Part shown: positions 25,158 to 55,259 of the stretch, piece after piece
Layout of the letters: every line of letters starts with the position of its first letter
Position numbering within the stretch: position 1 is the stretch's first letter
Assembly (NCBI GenBank): GCA_963764745.1
Contig: CAVXTN010000006.1
Location: 1,652,313-1,716,312, forward strand
Direction of reading: 5' to 3'
From: Candidatus Aminicenantes bacterium
GTDB taxonomy: Bacteria; Acidobacteriota; Aminicenantia; UBA2199
Length of the DNA stretch: 64,000 nucleotides
Made by a program: the position numbers and the translations under genes
The notes under the pieces: model-generated
Told to the model about the DNA's origin: nothing
Database searches by the model: none
The model's input: the letters and a program-made list of their open reading frames with translations, nothing else

Positions 25158-25206
25158 GTTCTCGGTGCGAAAACCGTCGCTGAGCGACGGTATTCGCACG
25201 CAGAAT
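25158..25206. repeat. Palindromic intergenic repeat, family B copy 2
   Basis: GTTCTCGGTGCGAAAACCGTCGC-TGA-GCGACGGTATTCGCACGCAGAAT. About 80% identical to the copy at 11729..11777, with a symmetric CG/GC internal mismatch. It lies just downstream of the LLM oxidoreductase stop. Confidence 0.75.
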
Positions 25207-27730: not shown

Positions 27731-27785
27731 ACGCGTTTTGGGGACGGATATGTGCGCCAGGCGCACATATCCGTCCCCGAAACGT
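27731..27785. repeat. Palindromic intergenic repeat, family A copy 1 (~24-bp stem), between the convergent ECH and ferritin-like genes
   Basis: ACGCGTTTTGGGGACGGATATGTGCGCC-AG-GCGCACATATCCGTCCCCGAAACGT. Related copies at 47901..47956 and 49321..49375. Confidence 0.8.
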
Positions 27786-27821
27786 CAGAGCGGTGAGTCA
27801 GAGCGGTGAGGCTGAGCGGGG

Positions 27822-28967
27822 TCAGCCGGCTTCGGCGGCAGCCTCGCGGTCGGCGTTGACGGCGTCGAAGTCGAGGTACTCCTCGCCGGTGTCGGTCCAG
27901 TCCTCGAACTGGGTGACGCCGAGCACGTCGAAGCTCTTGCGCAGCCAGCCGTCGTTGGCGTCGAGCAGGCCGAGCTTCTTGCAGTTGGGCACGATCTTCG
28001 AGAACAGCAGCTGCTGGAACGGGTCCTCGTTCTTGTCGGCCGACGTTGAAGGTGCGGATGGCCTCCTTCACGTCGACGCCCATGCGCTCCCAGACCTCCT
28101 GCTGGAGGAAGCGGTCGCGCATGCGCACCGCGGCCTCGAAGGCGAACTCCTGGCGGTCCAGCATCTCGGCGTCGGTGAGGCCCTCGTAGTACTCCTTCAG
28201 CGACAGCACGCCGAAGGCCACGTGGCGGGCCTCGTCGCTCATGACGTAGCGCAGCAGCTGCTTGAGCAGCGGCTCCTGGGTGGTCTGGTAGGCCATGCCG
28301 AACGCGGCCAGGGCGAGGCCCTCGACCATGATCTGCATGCCCAGGTAGGTCATGTCCCAGCGGCTGTCGTTGATGATGTCGTCGAGCAGCATCCGCAGGT
28401 GGGCGTTGATCGGGTAGTGGCCGTCGACACTTGGTGTCGAGGTACTTGGCGAAGACCTCGACGTGGCGGGCCTCGTCCATCACCTGGGTGGCGGCGTAGT
28501 ACTTGGCGTCGATCCACGGCACCGTCTCGACGATCTTGGCGGTGCAGATGAGCGCGCCCTGCTCGCCGTGCATGAACTGCGACAGCGACCAGTTCTGGCG
28601 ACTCGATCTGGAAGTCGAGCCACTCGCGGTCGCCCCACTTCGCGAGCGCCGTGCCCGTGAGGTCGATGCCGAGCATGTCGAAGATGTCCTCGCCGGCCAC
28701 GCCCTGCTCCGCCGGCCATCTTCTCCTGGTCGACCTCGATCGACCAGTCGAGGTCGGTCTCGCCGTTCCACTGCGACCGCTTGGCCTTCTCGTACAGCTT
28801 GTTCGAGCTGCGGGCCGGGCGCCCTTCTCGTAGTCCCACGTGAAGATGGCGTCGGCGTTGTCGGAGACCGTGTGGACAGCCTCGTCGACGTCGGTGTTGG
28901 TGATGGCGAGGATGGCGTCGAGGTCGTCGGTCTCCTCGCGACCGAGGATGTCGGCTTCGTTGGTCAT
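27822..28967 (-). CDS. Ferritin-like diiron-carboxylate protein (AurF/acyl-ACP-desaturase-like oxygenase family). At least five frameshifts.
   Basis: Reconstructed across three frames: MTNEADILGREETDDLDAIL... then ...NKLYEKAKRSQWNGETDLDW... then ...SQFMHGEQGALICTAKIVETVPWIDAKYYAATQVMDEARHVEVFAKYL... then ...DSRWDMTYLGMQIMVEGLALAAF...VMSDEARHVAFG... then ...DKNEDPFQQLLFSKIV...EAAAEAG*. Two E...EARH motifs. Confidence 0.6.
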
Positions 28968-42350: not shown

Positions 42351-42427
42351 GTGGTGGAGGTGATGGGACTCGAACCCACGGCCTCTTCGATGCGACCGAA
42401 GCGCTCTAGCCAACTGAGCTACACCCC
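42351..42427 (-). tRNA. tRNA-Ala (anticodon CGC), CCA encoded
   Basis: Reverse complement GGGGGTGTAGCTCAGTTGGCTAGAGCGCTTCGGTCGCATCGAAGAGGCCGTGGGTTCGAGTCCCATCACCTCCACCA. The G3:U70 pair in the acceptor stem is the Ala identity element. Anticodon loop GTCGCAT. Confidence 0.8.
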
Positions 42428-42475
42428 CGCAGGAAGCGTCACCTTAGCCGAGGCCGCGAAGGCCCCCGGAACGCG

Positions 42476-42503
42476 TCACTGCCCGGCCGTGAGGCCGGGC
42501 AGT
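42476..42503 (-). terminator. Strong hairpin: 12-bp perfect stem, GTGA loop. Candidate intrinsic terminator of the CAP-domain gene, ahead of the tRNA-Ala promoter.
   Basis: CACTGCCCGGCC-GTGA-GGCCGGGCAGTG. No U-tract, as is common in Actinobacteria. Confidence 0.5.
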
Positions 42504-42558
42504 GGCTGCGGGTCGGCTTCGGGCTCCCCTCCCTCGACCGACGCGTCCTTGGTGTGGC

Positions 42559-43044
42559 TCAGCAGGTCCGGATGAACTCCTGGACCACGAACACGGTGCT
42601 GCCCCGACGGGCCACGCCGGTGCCGGCGTGGTTCCAGGTGCCGTTCAGGATGTTGCCCCGGTGCTCGGGCGAGCCCATGAAGGCCCGTTCGATCGAGGCG
42701 GTGTCGGGGCCGTAGCCGACGTTCTCGCCCAGACCGCACCAGCGCACGCTGTAGCTGCTGGGCAGGTAGGTGTGCTGCAGGTAGCCGATGGCGGCCAGGT
42801 GGTCGGCCCAGGCCTGCGCCTTCGACACCGACTGGGAGAGCGGGCTCAGGTTGCGCAGACCGTTGTGGTAGCGGTCGGTGTTGAGCTGGTAGAGCGTCTT
42901 GGACTGGTTGTTGCTGAGGCACGACGTGAGCAGCGCCATGGCCACCACCAGGGCCAACGCGGCGAGGAGCGCCGGGCGGCGGCGCGCCGGGGACACCTCG
43001 GGGACGTCAGGCGTCGCGGGGGGGCTGGTCTGAGCTGCGGCCAT
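42559..43044 (-). CDS. CAP (SCP/PR-1-like) domain secreted protein
   Basis: Signal peptide, then ...AWADHLAAIGYLQHTYL...GENVGYG...ERAFMGSPEHRGNILN...HAGTGV... Start taken at the internal Met MAAAQTSPP. Confidence 0.65.
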   Translation of the reverse strand: MAAAQTSPPATPDVPEVSPARRRPALLAALALVVAMALLTSCLSNNQSKTLYQLNTDRYHNGLRNLSPLSQSVSKAQAWADHLAAIGYLQHTYLPSSYSVRWCGLGENVGYGPDTASIERAFMGSPEHRGNILNGTWNHAGTGVARRGSTVFVVQEFIRTC

Positions 43045-43140
43045 GAAGAGGTATCGGCCGGATCGTGGGGGCACCTTGAGCCTCAATCGGTCCGGTGGGC
43101 CTGACTTCGTGGCACGCCGGCACTGGTCGGCAGCGGGGGG

Positions 43141-43730
43141 TCAGTTCGCGGCGGAGTGGGGCACCATGGCGGTGTCGACCTTGCGCACCGGGACCCGTGC
43201 GGGGCGGGAGCCCGCCGTGCGGGAGGTGCGGGTGCCGCTCACGGGCCGCTGGACGGCACGGGCGGCGGCAGGGGCCTGCTGGTGCGGCAGGTACCGCACC
43301 TTGAGCTGCTTCTCGTGCGCGATGCGCTGCTGCTGGAGCAGGGCGAAGACGTAGCCGGCCAGGGCCAGGTCGCACAGCACGTTGACGACGATGAGCAGCG
43401 GCCCGCCCAGGACGAGGGCGAGCAGGAAGGTGAAGGCGGCCGCACCAGCGAGGGCGAACAGCACGTCGCGGCGGCGCCGGCGGACGCTGGCCGACACGGA
43501 GGCGGTGCGGGGCGCCGGGCGGCCGGGGCCGAACGCGGCGACCGGGGCGAAGGACTCGGAGCGGCTGGCACGAAGGGAGCTGCGGCGGCCGCCGGGCTGG
43601 GTGCGCTGCAGCGTGTGCAGCTGGTCACGGAACGCGGAGACGGAGTCACCCGGGCGGGTCGAGGCACGGTCCCTCAGCCACGATCCGATGAGTACGGCCC
43701 ACAGAATGACCAGGACACCCAGCAACAGCA
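43141..43730 (-). CDS. Hypothetical membrane protein (2-3 TM helices)
   Basis: Hydrophobic segments MLLLGVLVILWAVLIGSW and LFALAGAAAFTFLLALVLGGPLLIVVNVLCDLALAGYVFALL. Start uncertain. Confidence 0.35.
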
Positions 43731-43947
43731 TTGCCACGCTCCACGCCTGCCTTTTGGTATCTGGACCGTAACCCGACACCCCCGGAAGGGGGTGGATGGT
43801 CGGCGGTCGGGGGGACGGGTGGACCTGAAGTCGACGGTGACCAGGCCAGGAACAGCCCATGACGGGTCGACAACAGTTGTTACATTTCTACTACGACGAG
43901 CGGCCGCGCGCCAGCCGCCCACGTGGCGATCGGGCCCGAAGGGGCGT

Positions 43948-44463
<516 letters not shown>

Positions 44464-44472
44464 CGTGACAGC

Positions 44473-45441
44473 TTACGAGGCCGAGCCGCGCGGCGAAGCT
44501 TCCGGGCCCGGGCCGTCGGGGTGGAGCCCACGCCGCTCGACCAGATCGGTGAGGAAGGCGGCGAACGGCGGGCCCAGGTCGTCACGCTCGAGCGCCAGCT
44601 CGACGGTGGCCCGGAGGTAGTCGAGCTTGGACCCGATGTCGTAGCGGCCGTCTCGGAACACGTAGCCGAACACGTCGGCGTCGCCGAGCAGCAGCGCGAT
44701 GGCGTCGGTGAGCTGGATCTCCCCGCCGACGCCCGGCTTCACCAGCTCGAGGGCGTCGAAGATGTCGGGGGTGAAGACGTAGCGACCCATGACGGCCAGC
44801 GACGAGGGGGCGTCCTCGGGGCGGGGCTTCTCGACGATGCCCTTGATCGGCACGAGGGTGCCGTCGGGCGTGGCGGCCCCGTCGGGGTTCCACGCGTCGC
44901 CCGGGTCGGCGCAGCCGTAGCTGCTGATGTCGGCCTGCGGCACGCTGCGGAGCGCCACCACCGAGGCGTTGCGCTCCTCGTGGGCCGCGATCATGCCGGA
45001 CAGCACCTTGGCGTCGTCGACCATGAGGTCGTCGCCGAGCAGCACCGCGAAGGGGTTGTCGCCGACGTGCTTGCGGGCCACCGACACGGCATGGCCGAGG
45101 CCCAGCGGCTCGCCCTGGCGGACGTAGTGGATGTCGGCCAGCTCGGCGAGGCCCTGGACCTCCTCGAGCAGGTCGTGCTTGCCCTTGGCCTCGAGGAAGT
45201 ACTCGAGCTCGAACTGCCGGTCGAAGTGGTCCTCGATGCTGCGCTTGCCGCGGCCGGTGATGATGAGGATGTCGTCGATGCCGGCGCGCACGGCTTCCTC
45301 GACCACGTACTGGATGGCCGGCTTGTCGACGACCGGCAGCATCTCCTTGGCCTGGGCCTTCGTGGCCGGCAGGAAGCGCGTGCCGAGCCCTGCCGCGGGG
45401 ATGACGGCCTTGCGGACGGTGCGGTGCGGATCGGTCGTCAC
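44473..45441 (-). CDS. galU: UTP--glucose-1-phosphate uridylyltransferase
   Basis: VRKAVIPAAGLGTRFLPATKAQAKEMLPVVDKPAIQYVVEEA...YVRQGEPLGLGHAV... GTG start at an internal V of ORF 44473..45567. Confidence 0.85.
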   Translation of the reverse strand: MTTDPHRTVRKAVIPAAGLGTRFLPATKAQAKEMLPVVDKPAIQYVVEEAVRAGIDDILIITGRGKRSIEDHFDRQFELEYFLEAKGKHDLLEEVQGLAELADIHYVRQGEPLGLGHAVSVARKHVGDNPFAVLLGDDLMVDDAKVLSGMIAAHEERNASVVALRSVPQADISSYGCADPGDAWNPDGAATPDGTLVPIKGIVEKPRPEDAPSSLAVMGRYVFTPDIFDALELVKPGVGGEIQLTDAIALLLGDADVFGYVFRDGRYDIGSKLDYLRATVELALERDDLGPPFAAFLTDLVERRGLHPDGPGPEASPRGSAS

Positions 45442-45642
45442 AGACCACCAGTTGTACCCGACGGCACACCCCACCGCACACCTGGCACGGGGCCGGGCTG
45501 GGGACCCGCGGGCCGCTCCCGGTATGCTGGCAGTCTCCGGGGTCGAGTGCCAGCTGTGCTCTCCCACGACCCTGGGCTCTCCGTCGGCGGCGCTGTCCTC
45601 CGACGGTCCCGGCCCCCGATCGCGTGCGCACAGAGGTCCCCG

Positions 45643-45927
45643 ATGCCCACCTACGAATACCGCTGCAAGGACTGCGGCGAGCCGCTCGAAGTCGTGCAGT
45701 CGTTCACCGACGACGCCCTCACGGAGTGCCCCGCGTGCGGCGGCACGCTGCGAAAGGTGTTCGGCAACGTCGGCATCGCCTTCAAGGGCAGCGGCTTCTA
45801 CAAGACCGACAGCCGGGGCTCGAAGGCCACGGCCGGCACGTCCTCGGGTTCCGGTTCCGGGTCCGGCGACAGCGGCTCGTCGTCGAGCGACAGCACCAGC
45901 AGCTCATCCAGCGACTCGTCGTCGTGA
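45643..45927 (+). CDS. FmdB-family zinc-ribbon protein with a Ser/Gly-rich tail
   Basis: MPTYEYRCKDCGEPLEVVQSFTDDALTECPACGGTLRKVFG... Low-complexity Ser/Gly-rich sequence continues in another frame to 46015, which may reflect an indel. Confidence 0.7.
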   Translation: MPTYEYRCKDCGEPLEVVQSFTDDALTECPACGGTLRKVFGNVGIAFKGSGFYKTDSRGSKATAGTSSGSGSGSGDSGSSSSDSTSSSSSDSSS

Positions 45928-46050
45928 GGGCAACGGCAACGGCAGCAGCGGGACCGGGAGCGACGGGGCGAAGAAGGCCGACACCAAGGCCCCCGCCGCC
46001 ACCCCCTCCACCTGACCCGCCCGGCGGCCGAGTTCCCGTTCTGCTCCCGC

Positions 46051-47315
46051 TCAGTTGGCCGAGCCGGTCGCTGCGCCCGACGACCCGGACGAACTGGACC
46101 CTGACCCGCCGCCCGCGACGCCGGGCTCGGGCGTCGGCGTCGTCACGGAGCAGTTGGCGTCGGGAGGGCACGACGGCGTGGTGGGGCACGGCGCGTTCGC
46201 CGGGCAGCTGGGGACCGAGCAAGGGGTCGTCGTCGCGCAGCCGCAGACCGTGCCGGGCGTCGAGCTCGGGTGTCGCGGTGCCCGGCTTGACCGTCTCGGC
46301 GGGACCGCCGGGGTTCACGTAGGTGCAGGTCGGCGGCAGCGTGGTCTTCGGGCAGGACGCCGTGCTGGCGCCCGGCACCTGGAGCTTGAGGCACTCCCCC
46401 GATCCCGGGAGCGTGGTCGGCGTCGGGGAACCGCAGTTCTGACCGTTCGGGAGCGGCGTGGTGGCCGTGGGCGCCTGCTCGGTGAGCGTCAGCAGCGGAC
46501 GCGCAGCCGCTCGGGGTAGACCCGCCGGCGTTGGACGGCTGTCGCACGCCGATCGCGGTCGGCAGCGAGGTGGCACCGGGCGCCAGCGGCAGCGCCAGCG
46601 CGGCGACCCAACCGGTGCCGCCCGGCACGGTGGTCGAGGTCGCCGACGTCGGTGGCCGCGCCGACGTCGGCGGCCACCCGCTGGTCGGCGCTCCCCGAAC
46701 CACGCACCAGGACCACCACGAACGGATGGCCCTCGGCGACGCCGACGACCTGCTCGGTGGCGGTCGTGGAGGACCCGGTCAGCGTGGTGCCGAAGGTCGG
46801 TGCCACGGCCACGTCGTCGGTCGAGGCCTCCACCTGGAACGTGTCGGAGGTGACGGTGCACGGGCCCGGAACGGTCGTGGCGGGACCGGATGCCTGCGGC
46901 TCGATCGGGCCGCCGACCGTGCCACTCCCCACCGAGTACACCGCGCAGGGTCACGCCGTTGGAGGTGCGGATCAGGACCTTGGTGAGCGGACCGGAGGCG
47001 AGCTCGGGCCCGGCCATCATGCTGTTCGTCCCGCCCGAGGCGCCGGGGACCAGGGCCGTGCGACCCACCCTTGGGCTGCGTCGCGGCGGTCTGCGTGGTC
47101 GTGTGGCTGCCGGTGTTGCGGCCGACGGCGACACCCGTGGCCACGCCCGCGATCAGCAGCACCGCGGCGGCCACCGACAGCACCCGCTGGTTGCGCCGGC
47201 TGCGGGTGGCGATGCGGTCGGTGAGGTCGGCGACGTCGGCCTGGGGGGCGACGGCCGCGCCCTCGTGGGCCAGCCCCGCGCGCAGGCGACCGGTGAGGTC
47301 CTCGTCGTCGCTCAT
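46051..47315 (-). CDS. Anti-sigma factor (single TM, Cys-rich extracytoplasmic domain). Multiple frameshifts; the C-terminal boundary is approximate.
   Basis: MSDDEDLTGRLRAGLAHEGAAVAPQADVADLTDRIATRSRRNQRVLSVAAAVLLIAGVATGVAVG (ORF 46779..47789). ATGA overlap with the sigma stop at 47312-47315. Downstream fragments in ORFs 45782..47134 and 46489..46941. Confidence 0.5.
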
Positions 47316-47848
47316 GGTTGGATCACCTCTCGGAGTGCGGCCAGGCCGCGGTGGATCAGGGATGCGACGGTGCCGACGCGGCAGCCGAGCGCATCGGCGA
47401 TGGCGGCGTCGGGGAGGTCGGCGTAGTAGCGCAGCACGATGGCGGCCCGCTGCCGGTCGGGCAGCGAGCGGAGCGCGTCGGTGAGCTCGTCGGGCTGGTC
47501 GGCGCGTGACGGCACGGCCTCGAGGAGACGCTCGCGGTCGGCGCCGGGGACCTCGTTGCGGCGGGTCCGGGCGGTGCGGCGGTGGTGCGAGGTGGCGCCG
47601 TTCACGACGCTGCGCCGCACGTAGGCGACCGGCTGGTCGACCGAGCCCCAGCGCCGGTGCAGGCCGACGAACGCGTCCTGCACCAGGTCCTGGGCGGTGT
47701 CGCTCGACCCGGTGAGCACGTACGCCAGCCGCACCAGGGCGTCGTGGTGGGCGAGGTAGCAGTCGACGAACGTCGTCGACGGCCCGCACTCGCCGGGGTT
47801 CACCGCCTGGAGTCGGGCACCGAGCACCGGGGCCGCCGCGTCATGCAC
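47312..47848 (-). CDS. ECF RNA polymerase sigma factor (SigE-like)
   Basis: Region 2 (DLVQDAFVGLHRRW) and region 4 (LPDRQRAAIVLRYYADLPDAAIADALGCRVGTVASLIHRGLAALR). GTG start. Confidence 0.85.
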   Translation of the reverse strand: MHDAAAPVLGARLQAVNPGECGPSTTFVDCYLAHHDALVRLAYVLTGSSDTAQDLVQDAFVGLHRRWGSVDQPVAYVRRSVVNGATSHHRRTARTRRNEVPGADRERLLEAVPSRADQPDELTDALRSLPDRQRAAIVLRYYADLPDAAIADALGCRVGTVASLIHRGLAALREVIQP

Positions 47849-47900
47849 GGATGTCTAGACGCCCGACCCACCCCAAACCTTGCACCCGTCTCCCCCTTCC

Positions 47901-47956
47901 ACGTTCTGGGGACGGATATGTGCGCCTGGCGCACATATCGCACCGAAAGTGCGGGT
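47901..47956. repeat. Palindromic intergenic repeat, family A copy 2 (degenerate right arm carrying an embedded GCAC-CGAAA-GTGC mini-hairpin)
   Basis: ACGTTCTGGGGACGGATATGTGCGCC-TG-GCGCACATATCGCACCGAAAGTGCGG. Located between the AAA ATPase stop and the sigma factor start. Confidence 0.7.
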
Positions 47957-47990
47957 CCGACCCGTCCGGCCGGGGTCTGTCCCGGGAGGG

Positions 47991-49076
47991 TCAGAGGTAG
48001 AAGCCGACCGCGGCGGGCGGCTCGACCGCCTCGATGGGCCCCGCGCCGCCGACCCGGGCGTAGAGCTCGGCCACCGTGGCTCCCTCGGCGGCGATGGGCA
48101 CCGCCTCGCCGAGCCACTCCCGGCACTCCTCCGGGCTGAGCCGCCCCACCTCGATCTGGGCGAGGCAGCGACCCGGGCGGATCACGGCCGGGTGGAGGCG
48201 CGCGTGAGGGGCTCGTTGGTGGTGATCGCCACCAACACCTCGAGGCCCTGGCCGAGGATGCCGTCAGTGAGGTTGAGGAGGCGAGCGAGCGACTGCCCGG
48301 TCCCCGACTTGGCGTCGCCACGGATCAGCTCGTCGCAGTCCTCCAGGATGAGCAGCCGCCACCGCGGGTCGCCCTCGTCGTCCGGCTCGCAGAGCCCGAC
48401 CTCCATCAGGTAGCTCGGGTCGCGCAGCAGGCGTTCCGGATCGAGGACGCAGTCGACCTGGCACCACGACCGCCACCCATGGGCGAGCGCACGCAGCGCG
48501 GTGGTCTTGCCGGTTCCCGGAGGACCGTGCAACAGCAGCAGGCGACCGTTGATCGCGTCGGGCCGCAACGCCATGAGGTCGTCGAACGCCGCCGCGACGG
48601 AGCGCTGGTAGTTGCGCCGGATCTCGGGCCAGGGGCGCACCGCGATGCCCCGCGTGCGCCGCACCGGGCCGCGCTGCCCTACGTTCCAGAACCCCAGGCT
48701 CACACGCTCGTCGGTGGGCGCGGGGGGCTCGACCGCACCCTCGCAGGCCTCGTCGAGCACCTGCCGCGGCCACGTCGGCGCTCGTCGCCGTCACCGTCAG
48801 CACGGCAGAGCGATCCCGGTAGCGCGCCACGAGGAGCAGCCAGCCGTCACCGGACACGAGCGTCGAGGTCCGGTGCGACTGCTCGGCGTGACGGATCACG
48901 GCACCGCCGTCGGGGAGGAGGGCGGCGTCGGGCAGCACGTTCTCGAGCTGGCGCGTCCGCGACCAGGGCTGGGTCCCGGCCACGAAGGCCGCGATGATCA
49001 TCGTGTCGATGACCGCGCCGGGGTTGGCGCACTCGTCGAGGGTGATGGAGGTCGGAGGGAAGGTGGAAGGGAACAT
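47991..49076 (-). CDS. AAA family ATPase with a ~170-aa N-terminal domain of unknown function. Two frameshifts.
   Basis: Walker A LLLHGPPGTGKTTALRAL, Walker B LLILEDCDE, sensor-1 ITTNEP, sensor-2/Arg finger IRPGR (in ORF 47991..48185). N-terminal MFPSTFPPTSITLDECANPG... in ORF 48264..49109. Confidence 0.65.
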
Positions 49077-49145
49077 GGCTGAGGTCGCGTTCGTGAAGGC
49101 GCGCGGCACAGACGCGTCGCGCTGGATCGGGTTCGGCCCGGCTGG

Positions 49146-49171
49146 AGCCGGTGTCGGTCGCGGGCTCTAGA
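49146..49171. promoter_or_regulatory. Perfect 26-bp palindrome GGTCGCGGGCTCTAGAGCCCGCGACC, about 70 nt upstream of the AAA ATPase start
   Basis: The sequence is its own reverse complement. It lies between the pmbA end, the family-A repeat and the AAA ATPase start. Confidence 0.5.
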
Positions 49172-49320
49172 GCCCGCGACCTGGCTGCACGCCGAAGGTG
49201 GCCCTCGACGGGGCAGGTCCCCGGAGGGCCGCGGCGGCAGCAGTGGACGAACGCATAGGGCGGAGATGATGCGCCTCCCCGCTCCGCGTGTCAACGGAGT
49301 TCCCGGTCAACCCACCCTCG

Positions 49321-49375
49321 ACGCGTTTTCTAGGGACGGATGTGTGCGCCTGGCGCGCATATCCGTCCCCAAAAG
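49321..49375. repeat. Palindromic intergenic repeat, family A copy 3
   Basis: ACGCGTTTTCTAGGGACGGATGTGTGCGCC-TG-GCGCGCATATCCGTCCCCAAAAG. Just downstream of the pmbA stop (49407). Confidence 0.8.
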
Positions 49376-49406
49376 ATCGACGGCGAAGGGAGGCGGCAGG
49401 CGAGGG

Positions 49407-50748
49407 TCAGGTGCCGGAGACGGAGATGTCGCGCAGCACCAGGCTCACGCCGGCGGCGCTCATGGGCAGCCACTCGACGTCGTTGCCCACGGCCACCACG
49501 TCCTTGAGCATGCGCTGGAGCGTGGAGGCGATGGTGAACTCCCGCAGCGGCTGGCCGAGCACGCCGTCGACGATGCGCAGCCCCTCGGCGCCGGTGGAGA
49601 AGTCGCCACTGACCGGGTTGACGCCCGAGTGCAGGCCCGGCCACGGACGAGACCAGGATGCCGTCGCCCACCTCGGCCAGCAGCTCCGGCTGGGTCTTGG
49701 TGCCGGGCACCAGCGACACGGCCCGGCAGCCGACGCCCGGGGTGCTCTTGAAGCCACGGACGGCGGAGCCGGTGGAGACGGTGCCCGACCGGCGGGCGGT
49801 GTAGGCGTTGTGCGCGAACTTCTGCAGGACGCCGCTGTCGACGAGGACGTTGCGGCGCGTGGCCAGGCCCTCGCCGTCGGTGTGCGAGGCGGTGTAGGCG
49901 AGCGGGTTGGTGGGGTCGTCGACGAGCGTGAGCACCGACGAGGCGATCTCGTCGCCCAGCCGGTCGGCGAAGAGGGAGCGGCCCTTGAGCACGGCCTCGC
50001 CGTTCATGGTGCCGGCGAGGATCCCGATGAGCTGGGCCGTGACGTAGGGATCGAGGACCACGGTCATGCGGCCGCCCGCGGGCTTGACGGCGCCGAGCAG
50101 GCGGGTGGCGCGCTGGGCCGCGTCGGACGCGGCCGCGTCGACGTCGAGCTCGGACGGCTCACGGCCGACCGAGAACCCGAAGCCGGTCTTGGTGTCGCCG
50201 TCGGCGGTGGCGAGCGGGTAGGCGCCCACGTAGCAGGCGGAGTCGCGCCCGGTGGCCCGGATGCCGGTGGTGGTGACCACCACGCCCTCGCTCACGCCGT
50301 CGGCGTACTCGGCCGCCTCGATGCCGCTGATGCGCGGGTCGGCCGCACGGACGGCCCGCTCGAGGTCGAGGGCCAGCGCCACCTTGCGGTCGGTGGGGAC
50401 GTCGAACAGGCCCGGTCGGTACAGGTCGAGGTCGGGCACCGGCACGCCGTCGGGCTCGGCCAGGCCGAGGAACTCGTCGGGGGTGCCGAAGCCGGCGTTG
50501 TCGCGGGCCTCGTCGAGGACCTCGTGCAGCACGTCGGGGTCGAGGCTGCCGGCGTAGGCGAAGCCCTGCCGCCCGTCGGCGATGACGCGCACGCCGAGGC
50601 CCTGCGACTCGGCCGACGACAGCGACTCGATGTCGCCCTCGTAGACCCGGATCTCGGTGGAGCGGCTCTTGCCGACGACCACCTCGACCTGCTCGCCGTC
50701 GTGCGCCCAGCCGATGACCCGATCGGCGATCGCCAGCAGCTCGTCCAT
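49407..50748 (-). CDS. pmbA: Metalloprotease PmbA/TldE. Frameshifted near 49760.
   Basis: MDELLAIADRVIGWAHDGEQVEVVVGKSRSTEIRVYEGDIESL... The C-terminus ...VAGLHSGVNPVSGDFSTGAEGLRIVDGV... is in ORF 49407..49757. Confidence 0.75.
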
Positions 50749-50764
50749 GGTTCGCGCTTCGCGC

Positions 50765-52223
50765 TCATGCCGCGGACCCGCCGATGGTGAGCTTCGACAC
50801 CCGCAGCGTGGGGACGCCGTCGCCGACGGGCACGCCCTGGCCGTCCTTGCCGCACGTCCCGGGCGGACCGAACTCGAAGTCGTTGCCCACGGCCTCGATG
50901 TTCTGGAGCACCTCGGGGCCGTTGCCGATGAGGTTGCCCTCGCGGAGCGGCTCGGTGATCTCGCCGTTCTCGATGAGGTACGCCTCGGTCATGCCGAAGA
51001 CGAAGTCGCCGGTGGCGGTGTTGACCTGGCCGCCGCCGAGCTTGGCCACGTAGACGCCGTGCTCGGTGCCCGACACGATCGAGGCCGGGTCGTCGGGGCC
51101 GTCGAGGATGAAGGTGTTGGTCATGCGCACCATGGGCAGGTGCTGGTAGCTCTGACGGCGGCCGTTGCCCGAGCGGGGCCGGCCCTCCTTGCGCGAGCGG
51201 AGGAAGTCCCACATGTAGTCGGTGAGGATGCCGTCCTGGATCAGCACGTTGCGCTGGGCCGGGGTGCCCTCGTCGTCGCAGCCGAACGCGCCCCACTCGG
51301 TGGCGACGGTGCCGTCGTCGACGAGCGTGACGAGCGGCGACGCGACCTGCTCACCGCGGCGGTCCTTGAACACCGAGGCGCCCTTGGCGATGAGGTCGGC
51401 CTCGAGGCCGTGGCCGCACGCCTCGTGGAACAGCACGCCACCGCCGCCCGGCCCGATGACGACGGGCAGCTCGCCGGTGGGCGCCGGTCGCGCCGCGAGC
51501 TTGGTGAGCGCCCGCTCGGCGGCGGCGCGTGCCAGCTCCTCGACGTCGTAGCGGTCGAACAGCTCGAAGCCGATGGTGTGGCCGATGCTCTCGCGGCCCG
51601 TCTGCATGCCCGTGTCGCCCAGGGCCACGGCACCGACGGTGAACAGCGTGCGCACCTGGTCGTCGCCGGTGAGGAGGCCGTCGGAGTTGGCGATGAGGAT
51701 GCGGCGGCGGCTGTCGGCGTAGCTGGCCGACACCTGCCGGATGTCGCCACCGGCCGCGCGGGCGGCGCCGTCGGCCCGCTGCAGCAGCTCCACCTTGGTG
51801 GCCTTCGCCGACGTCGGACGGCTGGATCTGCGCCGGGCTCGGGTGGCGCACCTCGGTGCGGGTGAGGGCCACCGTGCGGGTGCCGCCCCCGCCTTCGCGG
51901 GCTGCGGCGGCCGCGGCCTCGGCGGCGACGAGCAGGCCGGTCTCGGACAGGTCGGCGGTGTGGGCGAAGCCCGTGGTCTCGCCCACGACCACCCGGATGC
52001 CGGCGCCGCGATCGCGGCCCGACGACAGCTCCTCGATCTTGCCGTCGTCGAGGTAGGCCGACGACGAGCGCTTGTCCTCGGCGAAGACCTCGGCGAAGTC
52101 ACCCCCGGTGCGCAGCGCGGCGGTCAGGACCCGGGTGACGACGTCGTCGTCGATGAGGGCGGCAGCGGGCACAGGTGCCTCCAGAGGGGCGTTGTCGGCA
52201 GCCTCGATTCGGGGCCGCCGCAC
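50765..52223 (-). CDS. tldD: Metalloprotease TldD. At least two frameshifts.
   Basis: ...GVLFHEACGHGLEAD...GNGRRQSYQHLPMVRMTNTF...VCGKDGQGVPVG... are TldD signature motifs. N-terminal part in ORF 51351..52223. Confidence 0.8.
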
Positions 52224-52285
52224 GCGACCGCGCCCGGCGCACCACGACCCGTTCGCTCCCGGTCGACAGAGCGGCTTATCGTACC

Positions 52286-52666
52286 CCGATGCCCGTGGAA
52301 CCCGGCCTGTCCGCGTCGGCGACGCTCACCGTCACCGACCTCGACACGGCGCAGCACCTCGATGTCGGCGATGTGCCGGTCCTCGCCACGCCGCGGGTCA
52401 TCGCGCTGTGCGAGCAGGCCAGCGTGCGGGCCACGGAGGGCCGGCTCCCCGAGAGCCACACCACCGTCGGCACCGGCGTGCAGATCTCCCACGTGGCACC
52501 GTCGGGCGTCGGCGAGACGGTCACGGCCGAGGCCACGCTCGACAAGATCGACGGGCGCCGCCTCATGTTCACGGTCAGCGTGTCCGACAGCCATGGGCTC
52601 GTGGCTGCCGGCAAGGTCACCCGGGTGCTCGTCGACCGCGAGCGCTTCCTCGAGCGTGTGAGCTGA
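52286..52666 (+). CDS. Hotdog-fold thioesterase family protein
   Basis: MPVEPGLSASATLTVTDLDTAQHL...VLATPRVIALCEQASV...GTGVQISHVAPSGVGETVTAEATL... Confidence 0.6.
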   Translation, partial: PMPVEPGLSASATLTVTDLDTAQHLDVGDVPVLATPRVIALCEQASVRATEGRLPESHTTVGTGVQISHVAPSGVGETVTAEATLDKIDGRRLMFTVSVSDSHGLVAAGKVTRVLVDRERFLERVS

Positions 52667-52667
52667 G

Positions 52668-54393
52668 GTGTCCGTCCCCGCCTCCCCGAAGGTCGCAGCC
52701 CCCGGTCCCGACGGAGCACCCGCCACGACCGACGAGCCCACCACGCCCACCGAGCCGGAAGGGCCGGAGCAGGTCGGGCGCCGGGGCCGGTGGCTCGAGG
52801 CCCTCCCCGCGCTCGCCGCAACCGTGGTGCTGCTCGCCGCCGGCACGGCGCTGCTGGCCACCACGTGGCACCCCGTCGGCGACTACGCGATCGCCGAGAT
52901 CATCGTCCGCCACTCGTTCCCCCACCCGCCCCTCTTCGGGCCCTACTCGGGCACCCGGCCCTACCACCACCCGCTCCCGCTCGTCTACGCCCTGGTGTGG
53001 GCGCCGTACGAGCTCTTCGGCCAGCGGTCGTCGGCGCAGCTCGCCGCCACGGTGTGGTTCAACGCGGTGCTCATCGGCCTGCTCGTGTGGCTCACCGCCC
53101 GCCGGCGGGTGCTCGGCCTGGGCCTCCTCCTGCTCGCGGGCATCACGGTGTTCGCCCGAACCAACCAGCCCGGTCACCTGTCGGTCCCCTGGAACCCCTA
53201 CCTCGGCTTCGTGCCCGCCGTGGTCCTGGTGGTCGCGGTGTGGCAGACGACGCTCGGCCGGCGCTGGTACCTGCCGCTGGCCACCGGCCTGGCGACGTGG
53301 TGCGTGGGCGCGCACATCGGCTACGCCCCCACCGTCGTCGGCCTCGCGGCCGTCACCATCGTGGGTCTGCCGCTCGCCCTGGTGCGCCAGCACGGCCGCG
53401 CCGGGTGGCGCCTGCTCGGGTGGCCCCTCCTCGCCTCGCTCGGCGTGCTCCTGCTGATGGTGTCGCCGGCGCTGGCCGACCTCGCGCAGCACGGCTCGAC
53501 CAGCAACCCGTCGGCGATCTGGAGGTGGGTGCAGACCTCCAAGGACCCGATCATCCCCCGCCACACCGCGTGGCAGGCGATCTTCGGCGACCTGTCCCTC
53601 CGGTCCACGTGGGCCACCGGCCACCGCCCGTACGCCGTGTTCGGCCGGCTCCCCGACACCCCGGTCCCGCTCCTCCTCGTGCCGCTCGTGCTGGCCTTCG
53701 CGTTCGCCGCGTGGCGCCGCGCGGGCGACGAGCTCGCGGCGCTCGTCACGGTGTCCGTCGCGGTGCTCACCACCGCCATCGGCATCCTGAACCTCCAGTC
53801 CGACCACCTCGTCGACTGGTACCTGCTCCCGATGCACGCCATGGGGGTGAGCCTGGCGGGCATCGTCGTGTGGTCGCTGTGCCGCAGCGCGTGGCACGTC
53901 ATCGGCCCGCACGTGTCGCTGACCGAGCCGCGTCGCCGGCTCCTGCGCACGGCGGGCGCCACCGTGGTCGCCGCCGCGCTCGCGCTGCTCATCGTGCCCA
54001 CGCTCCACGAGCAGAAGGTCACGGCCGACATGGCGGCCGCGCCCGCCTCGCTGGTGGCCTCCGTCGAGCGGGTGGTCCCCAAGAGCCACACCATCGTCCT
54101 CGAGTCGCCGTACCTGTACGACGGCTACCACCCCGAGGCCCTGGCCCTCGACCTCGACCGCGCCGGGTACACCGTGCGCTACCTGCCGCGCGACGCCAAC
54201 CTCTTCGGGAAGGGCCTCACCATCATCCCCAAGGGCCGGCCGGTCACCTACCTCTACACGAAGCTCTCGAGGCAGGCCGACTACAGCCCGGCGCCCGGCG
54301 CCCGCCGCATCGGCCAGACGGCTCCCGGTCCCCGCGGTGCTCGTGCCGGGGCTGGCGCCGATGGTGGTGTGGCTGATGCCGGGTCCCCCCTAG
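52668..54393 (+). CDS. Large polytopic membrane protein (~570 aa, possible GT-C-type glycosyl/mannosyltransferase-like). The C-terminal boundary is uncertain.
   Basis: GTG start overlaps the thioesterase stop (GTGA). 12 or more predicted TM helices. A CCCCCC run at ~54383 precedes an out-of-frame TAG, so the read-through to 55538 is probably an artefact. Confidence 0.5.
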
Positions 54394-55259
54394 GCCAGTC
54401 GGGGTCGGACCTCGTCGAGGAAGTCGTGCACGGCCTCCCACCAGGCCTCGGGGTTCTCGAACTGCGGGCTGTGCCCGGCATCGGGGATCTCGACCCGGCG
54501 GGCGTCGGGGATGGTCGTGGCCATGCGGTGCGACGCGGCCACGAACGGCCGGTCGAGCTCGCCGACGAGCACCAGCACCGGGATCTCGATCGTGGCGAGG
54601 GCCGGCAGCTGGTCGGACTGGGTGGCGGTGATCTCGATGGCGAGCGAGGCGTACATGGCCGGCGAGGCGCCGAGCAGCTTGCGGTCGCCGAACTCCGCGT
54701 AGCCCGGACGCTCGGCGATCAGGCGGCGGTGCGCCGGGGTGCTGAGGGCGTCGTCGGCCCGCTCGGCCTGGAGCCGGGCCAGCTCCGCCATGCCCCGCTC
54801 GCGGACGATGTGGGCCGCGGCCTGCGCCATCGCGGGGTCGAGCGCGGCGGGGGCCCGGTGGTGCGTGTCCATGAGGACGACGGCCACGAACCGGTCGGGG
54901 TGGCGGAGCACCAGCCGCTGGGCGATCATCCCGCCCATCGAGTGGCCCAGCAGCACGCAGCGGTCCCACCCGAGGACGTCGAGCAGGGCCAGCACGTCGG
55001 CCACGAAGATGTCGATGGAGTAGTCGGCCTCGTCGGCTGGCGAGTCGCTGGTGCCGTGGCCCCGGTGGTCGGGGGCGACGACGTGCCACCCGTCGGCCGC
55101 GAGTGGCCCGACGAAGTCGGCGAAGTCCTCCTTGGCCCCGGTGAAGCCGTGGAGGAGCAGCAACGGGAGCCCGCCCTCGCCCGCCTCCAGCACGCTCAGG
55201 CGGACCGGCTCGAGCCGGATGTCGCGCTCCTGCACGGTGGGGGCGTCGTCGGGCATGGC
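54391..55259 (-). CDS. Alpha/beta fold hydrolase
   Basis: ...LLLLHGFTGAKEDF...VLLGHSMGGMIAQ...DAGHSPQFENPEAW... 289 aa, intact. Confidence 0.8.

What the first reader, a model, noticed from the sequence alone, without database searches (positions are those of the whole stretch)
47901..49375. AAA ATPase with an unknown N-domain bracketed by two family-A repeats and a perfect 26-bp palindrome: possible inserted module between pmbA and the sigma factor
Order on the minus strand: tldD, then pmbA, then [repeat A3 - 26-bp palindrome - AAA ATPase - repeat A2], then the ECF sigma/anti-sigma pair. The AAA protein has canonical Walker A and B, sensor-1 and an IRPGR sensor-2, plus a ~170-aa N-terminal domain I cannot assign. 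It sits in a 1.4-kb unit flanked by two copies of the same palindromic element. A perfect self-complementary 26-mer, GGTCGCGGGCTCTAGAGCCCGCGACC, lies in its promoter region. This could be a repeat-mobilised cassette, or a tightly regulated stress ATPase linked to the TldD/PmbA proteases and the ECF sigma factor. It is the best candidate in the window for a previously undescribed module.
Basis: partly seen in the sequence, partly recalled or inferred. Interest (0 to 1): 0.6.

Follow-up and report, generated by a model that had tools for sequence, protein, structure and literature searches.

The report
DUF5925 AAA ATPase with proteasome-docking tail
The gene is an ordinary chromosomal copy of a widespread but unstudied actinobacterial ring-ATPase family, not a mobile cassette, and the family's conserved C-terminal G-x-Y-L tail suggests it may be an unrecognised partner of the bacterial proteasome.

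Summary
A minus-strand AAA ATPase gene (49076..47991) is split over three frames. Palindromic repeats lie on both sides, and a unique perfect 26-bp palindrome lies upstream.

The interpretation mostly fails:
- The "unknown" N-domain is Pfam DUF5925 (E 9e-57). Thousands of ~360-aa homologues exist across Actinomycetota.
- A relative with 96-98% identical flanks has the gene at the same site with no repeats, so the repeats are later REP-like insertions, not cassette ends.
- The tldD/pmbA/ECF-sigma synteny is confined to a narrow clade, and the AAA and sigma genes appear to have separate predicted promoters.
- The palindrome lies in the 5' UTR, not the promoter.
- The frameshifts are probably sequence errors, because tldD, pmbA and the anti-sigma gene carry the same kind of 1-base insertion.

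The AAA module is Bcs1/YjoB-like: its Walker B reads "ED" and Bcs1 is the top structural match.

The new point is the C-terminus. The window protein ends in GFYL, and the family ends in G-x-Y-L, often exactly GQYL. GQYL is the motif that docks Mpa and Bpa onto the 20S proteasome. I propose a substrate-threading ring ATPase that docks on the proteasome. This step is inferred, not shown (about 40%).

The parts
47991..49076 (-). Gene for a DUF5925-AAA protein, 360 aa after correction. As given it is broken by +1 near 48767 and +2 near 48206.
   Evidence: Pfam DUF5925 E 9e-57 and AAA E 2e-10. 96% identical to intact P0001.
48560..49055 (-). N-terminal DUF5925 domain (aa 8-169): helix, five-stranded sheet, helix, beta-hairpin, two helices.
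   Evidence: AlphaFold models with pLDDT 87 and 86. No significant PDB fold match for the domain alone.
48503..48526 (-). Walker A, GPPGTGKT.
   Evidence: Invariant in 121 homologues. Coordinates.
48401..48415 (-). Pore-loop-1 equivalent, SYLME. Y222 and L223 are invariant.
   Evidence: Aligns with the KYLGE pore loop of Afg2/Cdc48. Invariance.
48338..48355 (-). Walker B, LLILED, with 'ED' in place of 'DE'. This is the Bcs1/YjoB signature.
   Evidence: PMC9565160.
48168..48226 (-). Sensor-1 (TTNE) through the arginine-finger motif RPGR, i.e. the second region of homology.
   Evidence: Alignment to Afg2/Cdc48. Invariant N287, R299 and R302.
47994..48005 (-). Extreme C-terminus GFYL, on a low-confidence flexible tail. 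It is a GQYL/HbYX-type motif.
   Evidence: Motif function from PMC12288473 and PMC6017811.
49266..49294 (-). Predicted sigma-70-type promoter, TTGACA-17-CATCAT.
   Evidence: Only hit in 1.8 kb, with 0 expected. The -35 box is invariant in three lineages.
49077..49262 (-). About 185-nt 5' leader. Its 5' core of about 75 nt is nearly invariant and its 3' half is variable. It is predicted to be highly structured.
   Evidence: (z = -5.0). No Rfam family matched.
49156..49181 (.). Perfect 26-bp palindrome. It corresponds to stem-loop P3 of the leader.
   Evidence: Unique in the window. An 11-bp sense-strand hairpin with G-U pairs in L003, and only a weak hairpin in L001.
49167..49256 (-). Possible 29-codon upstream ORF, MRSSTAAAAALRGPAPSRATFGVQPGRGL. 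Its stop codon is the centre of the palindrome. Unproven.
   Evidence: The length is the same in three lineages.
49328..49374 (.). Family-A palindromic REP-like element between the pmbA stop and the AAA promoter. It lies inside an 84-nt insertion relative to L001.
47904..47939 (.). Family-A element with one arm degraded, between the AAA stop and the sigma promoter. It lies inside an 82-nt insertion relative to L001.
27734..27784 (.). Third, best-preserved family-A copy (25-bp arms), placed exactly between the stops of two convergent ORFs.

Best explanation
This is a chromosomal, vertically inherited, independently transcribed gene for a member of the actinobacterial DUF5925-AAA family. It is not an inserted or mobilised module.

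SHOWN.
- The protein is a soluble classic-clade AAA ATPase of the Bcs1/YjoB type. It has Walker A, a Walker B reading 'ED', sensor-1 Asn, RPGR arginine fingers and an invariant aromatic pore loop. A 170-aa DUF5925 domain precedes the AAA module.
- The protein ends in a flexible tail with G-x-Y-L.
- The two flanking repeats are copies of a dispersed, roughly 50-bp REP-like palindrome family. They were inserted into the intergenic spacers after the stop codons of pmbA and of the AAA gene.
- The 26-bp palindrome is one stem-loop of a long, structured 5' UTR.
- The frameshifts match a window-wide pattern of single-base insertions. They are most likely sequence errors.

INFERRED MECHANISM.
- The protein assembles into a ring.
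- The N-domains form the substrate-selecting cap or chamber.
- ATP hydrolysis drives substrate through the Tyr-Leu pore loops.
- The C-terminal G-x-Y-L tails insert into the alpha-ring pockets of the 20S proteasome, as the GQYL tails of Mpa/ARC and Bpa/PafE do.
- The family would then be an additional ATP-dependent route to proteasomal degradation.

Confidence in the identity and the non-cassette reading is about 0.9. Confidence in proteasome docking is about 0.4.
For: FAMILY.
- Pfam DUF5925 scores 191.9 bits and AAA 41.7 bits.
- 3945 homologues were found, the listed ones about 360 aa with the same two domains, from Streptomyces to Acidimicrobiales.
- An N-domain profile finds 1130 clusters at 50% identity.

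NOT A CASSETTE.
- Synteny is the same in L001/L002/L090/L091 and in the L003 lineage.
- L001 lacks both repeats although its flanks are 96-98% identical.
- Phages gave no match and plasmids only two weak ones: a Nonomuraea record of chromosome size and a 772-kb non-mobilizable Kitasatospora replicon.

AAA TYPE.
- The best PDB sequence hits are Afg2/Cdc48 and Bcs1.
- The top ten Foldseek hits of the full model (pLDDT 87) are Bcs1, followed by B. subtilis YjoB.
- The invariant E245-D246 Walker B matches the 'ED' exception that PMC9565160 describes for Bcs1 and YjoB.

TAIL.
- 117 of 121 close homologues and 83 of 83 genome loci end in x-Y-L, mostly G-[LFQM]-Y-L.
- Of 40 divergent full-length cluster representatives, 35 end in Y-[LIMV], 31 in G-x-Y-[LIMV] and 15 in exactly GQYL.
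- The last 20 or so residues have pLDDT 58-66.
- GQYL is required for Mpa and PafE to open the 20S gate, and the Q is dispensable (PMC12288473, PMC6017811).

DISTRIBUTION.
- All named hits are Actinomycetota, the proteasome-bearing bacterial phylum. PMC3511204 discusses pupylation machinery in Acidimicrobiales.

REPEATS.
- Five palindromes of about 50 bp with CGTTYT...ARAACG ends occur in the 64 kb. Those inspected lie just after stop codons.

SEQUENCE ERRORS.
- +1 insertions relative to relatives also occur in tldD (51809), pmbA (49635), the anti-sigma gene (47055, 46942) and at 54328.
Against: - No experiment or structure exists for any DUF5925 protein.
- The tail motif is the only direct pointer to the proteasome.
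- No proteasome or Pup gene showed up among the recurrent neighbours in 80 loci.
- Co-occurrence with prcAB was not tested genome by genome.
- Foldseek does not recognise the N-domain alone as Bcs1-like; the best E-value is 0.03.
- A profile of the N-domain hits no PDB sequence.
- The lid domain is unusually short.
- A conserved C-terminal aromatic residue could instead serve ring assembly or another partner.
- In this window the ORF is broken as given, so a real pseudogene cannot be excluded without the reads.
Confidence: 0.55

Rival explanations
1. It is a proteasome-independent chaperone or translocase of the YjoB/Bcs1 kind. A ring with an N-domain chamber holds or remodels specific client proteins in an ATP-dependent way, and the C-terminal Y-L serves ring assembly or another partner.
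For: Bcs1 and YjoB are the top structural matches, and all three share the 'ED' Walker B. YjoB is a soluble chaperone with no associated protease (PMC9565160). No proteasome genes were seen among the recurrent neighbours.
Against: It does not explain why the last four residues match G-Q-Y-L so exactly, and at the very terminus. It does not explain the restriction to Actinomycetota.
Confidence: 0.3
2. It is a repeat-mobilised cassette: the two family-A repeats are the ends of a unit that moved the AAA gene in between pmbA and the sigma gene.
For: Repeats bracket the gene in the window and also in the L003 lineage. The block between them is much more divergent than the flanks; dS is 0.43 against 0.09-0.12.
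Against: The gene sits at the same site without repeats in L001/L091. No relative with an empty site was found. No transposase or integrase gene fits inside the unit, which holds only the leader and the AAA gene. The same palindromes occur next to unrelated genes. The divergence fits allele replacement by homologous recombination.
Confidence: 0.03
3. It is a stress ATPase that works with the TldD/PmbA peptidases and the ECF sigma/anti-sigma pair as one functional module.
For: The order tldD-pmbA-AAA-sigma-antisigma on one strand is kept in three related lineages.
Against: None of 80 loci from other actinobacteria has pmbA, tldD or this sigma factor within 6 kb. More distant Acidimicrobiales-type relatives have other neighbours. 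The predicted promoters are separate, and hairpin elements sit between the genes.
Confidence: 0.07
4. In this genome the gene is a true pseudogene, inactivated by two frameshifts.
For: As given, the ORF is broken twice. The locus evolves faster than its neighbours, with dN/dS 0.2-0.3 against 0.03-0.11.
Against: The same kind of 1-base insertion breaks tldD, pmbA and the anti-sigma gene in otherwise 95-98% identical sequence. Apart from the two indels, the gene is 96-97% identical to an intact allele and has no in-frame stop in the reconstructed reading frame.
Confidence: 0.1
5. It is an anti-phage defence NTPase (STAND/NACHT-like) sitting in a variable island.
For: There is a marginal Pfam NACHT hit, 27.6 bits against a cut-off of 26.7. 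The allele is unusually divergent compared with its flanks.
Against: The NACHT and nSTAND matches cover only the P-loop region. PADLOC gives only weak P-loop hits, E >= 4e-4. The 80 genome loci from diverse actinobacterial genera all encode a ~52-57% identical homologue of the same size. No partner effector gene was found.
Confidence: 0.04

Closest known systems
Pfam PF19347 (DUF5925) + PF00004 AAA; RefSeq 'DUF5925 domain-containing protein'
   Same: Full-length collinear match with the same two domains and the same length. The window protein is a member of this family.
   Different: Nothing differs apart from the two frameshifts in the sequence as given. The family has no described function, and no paper in the searched library mentions it.
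Mitochondrial Bcs1 (e.g. 8t5u, 6ukp, 6sh3) and Bacillus subtilis YjoB (7w42)
   Same: Classic-clade single AAA module with the unusual 'ED' Walker B. A domain of about 160-170 aa sits directly N-terminal to it. These are the top Foldseek hits for the whole model.
   Different: There is no transmembrane helix, which Bcs1 has. The N-domain is not significantly similar on its own. The lid is shorter. A conserved G-x-Y-L C-terminus is not described for either in the papers read here. The oligomeric state is unknown.
Bacterial proteasome activators Mpa/ARC and Bpa/PafE (and Cpa)
   Same: A C-terminal GQYL-type motif on a flexible tail. Restriction to Actinomycetota. Like Mpa and Cpa, it is an AAA ATPase of the classic clade.
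   Different: The predicted secondary structure shows no long N-terminal coiled coil, and the NCBIfam pup_AAA model scores 15 bits against a cut-off of 505. It has one AAA domain, whereas Cpa has two. It is unrelated to Bpa. No binding data exist.
REP / MITE-like intergenic palindromic elements of bacteria
   Same: Elements of about 50 bp that are nearly perfect palindromes. There are several copies per 64 kb, those inspected lying just after stop codons. They show presence/absence differences between close relatives and lineage-specific sequence variants.
   Different: No associated transposase was identified. There is no U-tract, so they do not fit the scan's hairpin-plus-T-run terminator pattern.

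Membership tests
DUF5925-AAA family (PF19347 + PF00004) | N-terminal DUF5925 domain above Pfam's gathering score | tested here: met
   191.9 bits against a cut-off of 27. Residues 8-169 cover profile positions 16-178 of 178.
DUF5925-AAA family (PF19347 + PF00004) | AAA domain directly C-terminal, total length about 360 aa, collinear with family members | tested here: met
   AAA scores 41.7 bits against 21.2. 96-100% query coverage with 120 homologues.
DUF5925-AAA family (PF19347 + PF00004) | Uninterrupted reading frame | tested here: not met
   +1 near 48767 and +2 near 48206. This is probably technical, because neighbouring genes carry the same kind of insertion.
Classic-clade AAA, Bcs1/YjoB subgroup | Walker A, sensor-1 Asn, and a second region of homology with Arg fingers | tested here: met
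   GPPGTGKT, TTN and RPGR align with Afg2/Cdc48 and are invariant in 121 sequences.
Classic-clade AAA, Bcs1/YjoB subgroup | 'ED' instead of 'DE' in Walker B | tested here: met
   LLILED, with E245 and D246 invariant. The feature is defined in PMC9565160.
Classic-clade AAA, Bcs1/YjoB subgroup | Bcs1-type N-terminal domain fold | tested here: inconclusive
Bcs1 proper | N-terminal transmembrane anchor | tested here: not met
   The predicted structure starts with an unstructured stretch followed by a short helix at 19-33 that is part of the DUF5925 domain, not a separate membrane-spanning segment. I ran no dedicated transmembrane predictor.
Bacterial proteasome activators (Mpa/ARC, Bpa/PafE) | GQYL / HbYX-type motif at the extreme C-terminus | tested here: met
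   The window protein ends GFYL. 117 of 121 homologues and 83 of 83 loci end x-Y-L. 15 of 40 divergent representatives end exactly GQYL.
Bacterial proteasome activators (Mpa/ARC, Bpa/PafE) | Genomic co-occurrence with prcA/prcB | not testable with these tools
   All named hosts are Actinomycetota, but individual genomes could not be scanned for prcAB.
Bacterial proteasome activators (Mpa/ARC, Bpa/PafE) | Ring assembly, physical binding to the 20S core and gate opening | not testable with these tools
   This needs biochemistry or a multimer prediction.
Mpa/ARC orthologue | Score above the curated cut-off of the NCBIfam pup_AAA (proteasome ATPase) model | tested here: not met
   15 bits against a cut-off of 505. 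In addition, the secondary structure shows no long N-terminal coiled coil.
REP-like intergenic palindromes | Several dispersed, near-identical palindromic copies in intergenic DNA | tested here: met
   Three family-A copies with 0 expected, plus two related palindromes at 11728 and 25159. Hairpin z-scores are -5 to -9 for intact copies.
REP-like intergenic palindromes | Associated RAYT-type transposase in the genome | not tested
   Only 64 kb of the genome is available.
Composite transposon / mobile cassette | The gene is absent from the site in relatives, or the unit is found elsewhere, and mobility genes are present | tested here: not met
   The gene is present at the site in every relative found, with or without repeats. 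The unit holds only the leader and the AAA gene, leaving no room for a mobility gene.
Intrinsic terminator | GC-rich hairpin followed by a U-tract | tested here: not met
   The scan found 0 terminator-like sites. The hairpins are followed by A-rich, not T-rich, sequence.
Known cis-regulatory RNA (Rfam) | Score above a family's gathering threshold | tested here: not met
   Nothing reaches threshold. The best hits are chance-level, E 0.2-1.8.

The most novel reading that the evidence does not exclude
The DUF5925-AAA family is a fourth, so far unrecognised partner of the bacterial 20S proteasome. It would be a Bcs1-like ring ATPase whose G-x-Y-L (ancestrally GQYL) tails dock into the alpha-ring. 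That would give Actinomycetota an ATP-dependent degradation route that need not use Pup. Because Bcs1 forms heptamers, the ring might even match the sevenfold symmetry of the core.
Probability: 0.35. Interest if true: 0.8.

Novelty: new variant of a known kind. Interest (0 to 1): 0.5.

Why it matters
The gene in this window is ordinary: one member of a catalogued family, sitting where its relatives have it.

What matters is the family. A 2025 review of bacterial proteasomes (PMC12288473) lists only Mpa/ARC, Bpa/PafE and Cpa as activators, and calls the regulation of activator docking an open question.

This is a soluble Bcs1/YjoB-type AAA ATPase found in Streptomyces, Nocardia, Actinomadura and Acidimicrobiia. 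It carries the canonical GQYL-type docking tail, so it is a concrete and cheaply testable candidate for a further activator.

It would also give the Bcs1/YjoB branch of AAA proteins a bacterial function linked to proteolysis.

The locus further shows how REP-like palindromes and allele replacement can make a resident gene look like an inserted cassette.

Tried and rejected
- RFAM. Scans of the locus at a permissive E-value and of the whole window at gathering score found no known RNA family, only three tRNAs elsewhere.
- LEADER IN METAGENOMES. A scan with the conserved leader core found only the two lineages already known, plus one chance coding hit. Covariation evidence therefore stays limited to three lineages.
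- LEADER IN OTHER GENOMES. nhmmer and peptide-motif searches across the loci, which include 80 from distant genomes, matched only the five close-relative loci. The leader is therefore clade-specific. My early impression that it is more conserved than the gene was wrong overall. It is 76-78% identical against 81-85% for the CDS and 89-97% for the flanks. Only its 5' core is nearly invariant.
- STRAND OF THE LEADER STRUCTURE. Whole-leader folding energies do not favour the sense strand. Only the P3 hairpin of L003 does.
- CONSERVED NEIGHBOURHOOD. Clustering flanking ORFs in 80 loci gave no shared partner.
- DEFENCE AND MOBILITY. PADLOC gave only weak P-loop matches, phages gave nothing, and plasmids gave two weak hits on large non-mobilizable records.
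- LITERATURE. Searches for DUF5925 and for Bcs1-like proteins in actinobacteria returned nothing. The ProEnd supplements are not held as text.
- NOT DONE. I did not annotate the whole window or identify the organism beyond its nearest named homologues.
Full report
WHAT IS THERE

The region 47901-49375 holds one gene on the minus strand, from ATG 49076 to stop 47991. As given, it reads in three frames. I compared it with a metagenomic allele that is 96-97% identical at the DNA level and intact (L087, encoding P0001). The window has one extra base near 48767 and two extra bases near 48205-48206. Removing them gives a 360-aa protein that is 96% identical to P0001.

The two flanking repeats are real. 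The 30-mer core matches at 27742, 47910 and 49334, with no match in 100 shuffles. The 26-bp perfect palindrome occurs once, at 49156-49181.

ARE THE FRAMESHIFTS BIOLOGICAL?

Probably not. I aligned the window against two contig families whose housekeeping genes are 95-98% identical to it (L001, L091). Single extra bases appear in the window in:
- tldD (51809)
- pmbA (49635)
- the anti-sigma gene (47055, 46942 and others)
- position 54328

All of these are insertions in the window. They occur about once per 1-1.5 kb in that stretch. A pattern that breaks nearly every gene in otherwise near-identical sequence points to sequence error, not to pseudogenes.

THE PROTEIN

A PF00004 AAA domain follows. 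The family is large:
- 3945 homologues passed E <= 0.001. The 120 listed are about 355-430 aa (most near 360) and have the same two domains.
- They come from Streptomyces, Actinomadura, Spirillospora, Actinocatenispora and Acidimicrobiales bins. Where named, they are called 'DUF5925 domain-containing protein'.
- 488 loci in species-representative genomes encode a relative.
- A profile of the N-domain alone finds 1130 clusters at 50% identity.
- No paper in the searched library mentions DUF5925.

The AAA module belongs to the classic clade. By sequence, its best solved relatives are Afg2/Drg1, Cdc48/p97 and Bcs1. HMMER aligns GPPGTGKT, the pore-loop segment SYLME (with KYLGE), LLILED (with IIFIDE), TTN and RPGR in register. 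So 'IRPGR' is the arginine-finger end of the second region of homology, not sensor-2.

The Walker B reads 'ED' rather than 'DE', and E245 and D246 are invariant in 121 sequences. The YjoB structure paper describes exactly this exception as shared by mitochondrial Bcs1 and Bacillus YjoB (PMC9565160).

An AlphaFold model built on 121 sequences has mean pLDDT 87. Its ten best Foldseek matches in the PDB are all Bcs1 structures (E 4e-12 to 5e-10, 335-378 aligned columns), followed by YjoB.

THE TAIL

- The protein ends ...AAVGFYL.
- Among 121 close homologues, 117 end in x-Y-L: GLYL 54, GFYL 32, GQYL 12, GMYL 4, with other x-Y-L endings making up the rest. All 83 loci readable through to the stop codon do the same.
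- Among 40 divergent full-length representatives from the exhaustive search, 35 end in Y-[LIMV], 31 in G-x-Y-[LIMV], and 15 in exactly GQYL. GQYL is thus the commonest single ending across the wider family.
- The last 20 or so residues are variable and of low confidence in the model (pLDDT 58-66), as expected for a flexible tail.

GQYL is the C-terminal motif that Mpa/ARC and PafE/Bpa need to open the 20S proteasome gate. The glutamine is dispensable (PMC12288473; PMC6017811; PMC4254994). Workers in the field use the presence or absence of 'terminal GQYL-like motifs' to judge possible 20S binding (PMC10149685).

All named hosts of the family are Actinomycetota, the bacterial phylum with proteasomes. 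PMC3511204 also discusses pupylation machinery in Acidimicrobiales.

From this I infer, but have not shown, that the family is a ring ATPase that docks on the 20S core. I found no description of this idea.

NOT A CASSETTE

- Contigs of one relative lineage (L001, L002, L090, L091) are 96-98% identical to the window in tldD, pmbA, the sigma gene, galU and moaC. They have the gene order tldD-pmbA-AAA-sigma-antisigma but no repeat on either side. In the alignment the repeats fall inside clean 84-nt and 82-nt insertions in the window.
- A second lineage (L003-L005, L089; flanks about 90% identical) has the same order. It has a palindrome on both sides, in a lineage-specific variant, GGAACGGATATGCGCGCTGGACGCGCATATCCGTTCC.
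- L087 carries a different palindrome just after the stop codon.
- The window itself holds a third family-A copy, placed exactly between the stops of two convergent ORFs (27734-27784). It also holds two related palindromes at 11728-11778 and 25159-25205, with the same CGTTYT...ARAACG ends.

These are REP-like elements that settle in spacers after stop codons. They are not the ends of a mobile unit. They lack a following U-tract, so they do not fit the scan's terminator pattern.

A DIVERGENT BLOCK

Between the window and L001, the stretch from the pmbA stop to the AAA stop is far more divergent than its surroundings. The AAA coding sequence is 85% identical, against 96-97% for pmbA and the sigma gene.

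| Gene (window vs L001) | dS | dN/dS |
|---|---|---|
| AAA | 0.43 | 0.20 |
| pmbA | 0.09 | 0.03 |
| sigma | 0.12 | 0.11 |

(All values.)

A four- to fivefold excess of synonymous change points to replacement of the allele by recombination with a more distant lineage, on top of weaker constraint. This is what makes the block look 'inserted'.

NO LINK TO TldD/PmbA OR THE SIGMA FACTOR

- None of the 80 loci from other actinobacteria has pmbA, tldD or this sigma factor within 6 kb.
- No neighbour is shared across them.
- Relatives at 57-60% identity have other neighbours.
- The AAA gene has its own predicted promoter, TTGACA-17-CATCAT at 49294-49266. It is the only such site in 1.8 kb, and its -35 box is invariant in three lineages.
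- The sigma gene has a conserved sequence of its own ending in CGTCTAGA, downstream of the AAA stop, which I read by eye as an ECF-type promoter.

THE PALINDROME AND THE LEADER

The 26-mer lies within a leader of about 185 nt, between the promoter and the start codon.

- The leader's 5' core of about 75 nt is nearly invariant in three lineages. Its 3' half is variable. Overall it is less conserved than the coding sequence.
- The leader is predicted to fold into a multi-helix structure (-101 kcal/mol, z = -5.0). The 26-mer forms one stem-loop of it.
- In the L003 lineage the equivalent segment is an 11-bp hairpin that holds only on the sense strand because of G-U pairs. In L001 it is a weak hairpin.
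- Its sequence is not conserved, which argues against a conserved operator.
- With only three lineages, and no further ones found in metagenomes, the RNA structure remains a plausible but weakly supported reading.
- A 29-codon upstream ORF starts 10 nt after the -10 box and stops at the centre of the palindrome. It has the same length in all three lineages. I could not separate peptide constraint from structural constraint.

VERDICT

The 'inserted module' and 'linked stress system' readings are not supported. The gene is a regular member of a catalogued but unstudied family.

The most useful result is at the family level. A Bcs1/YjoB-type AAA ATPase with a GQYL-type tail is a credible and easily testable candidate for an additional proteasome partner in Actinomycetota. 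I put that at roughly 35-40%. The main alternative is a proteasome-independent chaperone of the YjoB kind.

Noticed in passing
window 42400-55200 (for example 54328, 51809, 49635, 48767, 48206, 47055, 46942): Compared with 95-98% identical metagenomic contigs, the window carries single extra bases about once per 1-1.5 kb. They break tldD, pmbA, the AAA gene and the anti-sigma gene. In the well-aligned coding stretches they are insertions in the window. This looks like systematic sequence error, so any 'pseudogene' call in this window should be treated with care.
   Followed up: partly
window 47988-49409 compared with L001 1915-3250: The block from the pmbA stop to the AAA stop is about 85% identical to L001, while both flanks are 96-98% identical. 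dS is 0.43 against 0.09-0.12. This suggests the whole allele was replaced by recombination. The extracytoplasmic part of the anti-sigma gene (about 45850-47130) is similarly divergent, at 56-87%.
   Followed up: partly
window 49167-49256 (-): A possible 29-codon upstream ORF, MRSSTAAAAALRGPAPSRATFGVQPGRGL, begins 10 nt after the predicted -10 box, so it would be nearly leaderless. It ends at the TAG in the centre of the 26-bp palindrome. Three lineages keep the same length and a conserved N-terminal two-thirds.
   Followed up: partly
window 11728-11778 and 25159-25205; L087 1170-1216: Further palindromes of about 50 bp share the end design of family A (CGTTYT...ARAACG) but have different cores. 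The genome seems to hold several subfamilies of REP-like elements. Copies within one genome resemble each other more than copies at the same site in different lineages do.
   Followed up: partly
window 47845-47900 (-), L001 3265-3310, L004 1300-1350: A conserved sequence, GCAAGGTT-N14-CGTCTAGA, lies upstream of the ECF sigma gene in all three lineages. By eye it looks like an ECF-type, probably autoregulated, promoter. No tool was run on it.
   Followed up: no
window 50746-50762: A 17-nt insertion relative to L091 sits at the tldD-pmbA junction. It changes the first codons of pmbA (MDELL... in place of MSDELL...).
   Followed up: no
window 27785-27825: Short tandem copies of GTCAGAGCGGTGA lie directly after the family-A palindrome at 27734-27784.
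   Followed up: no
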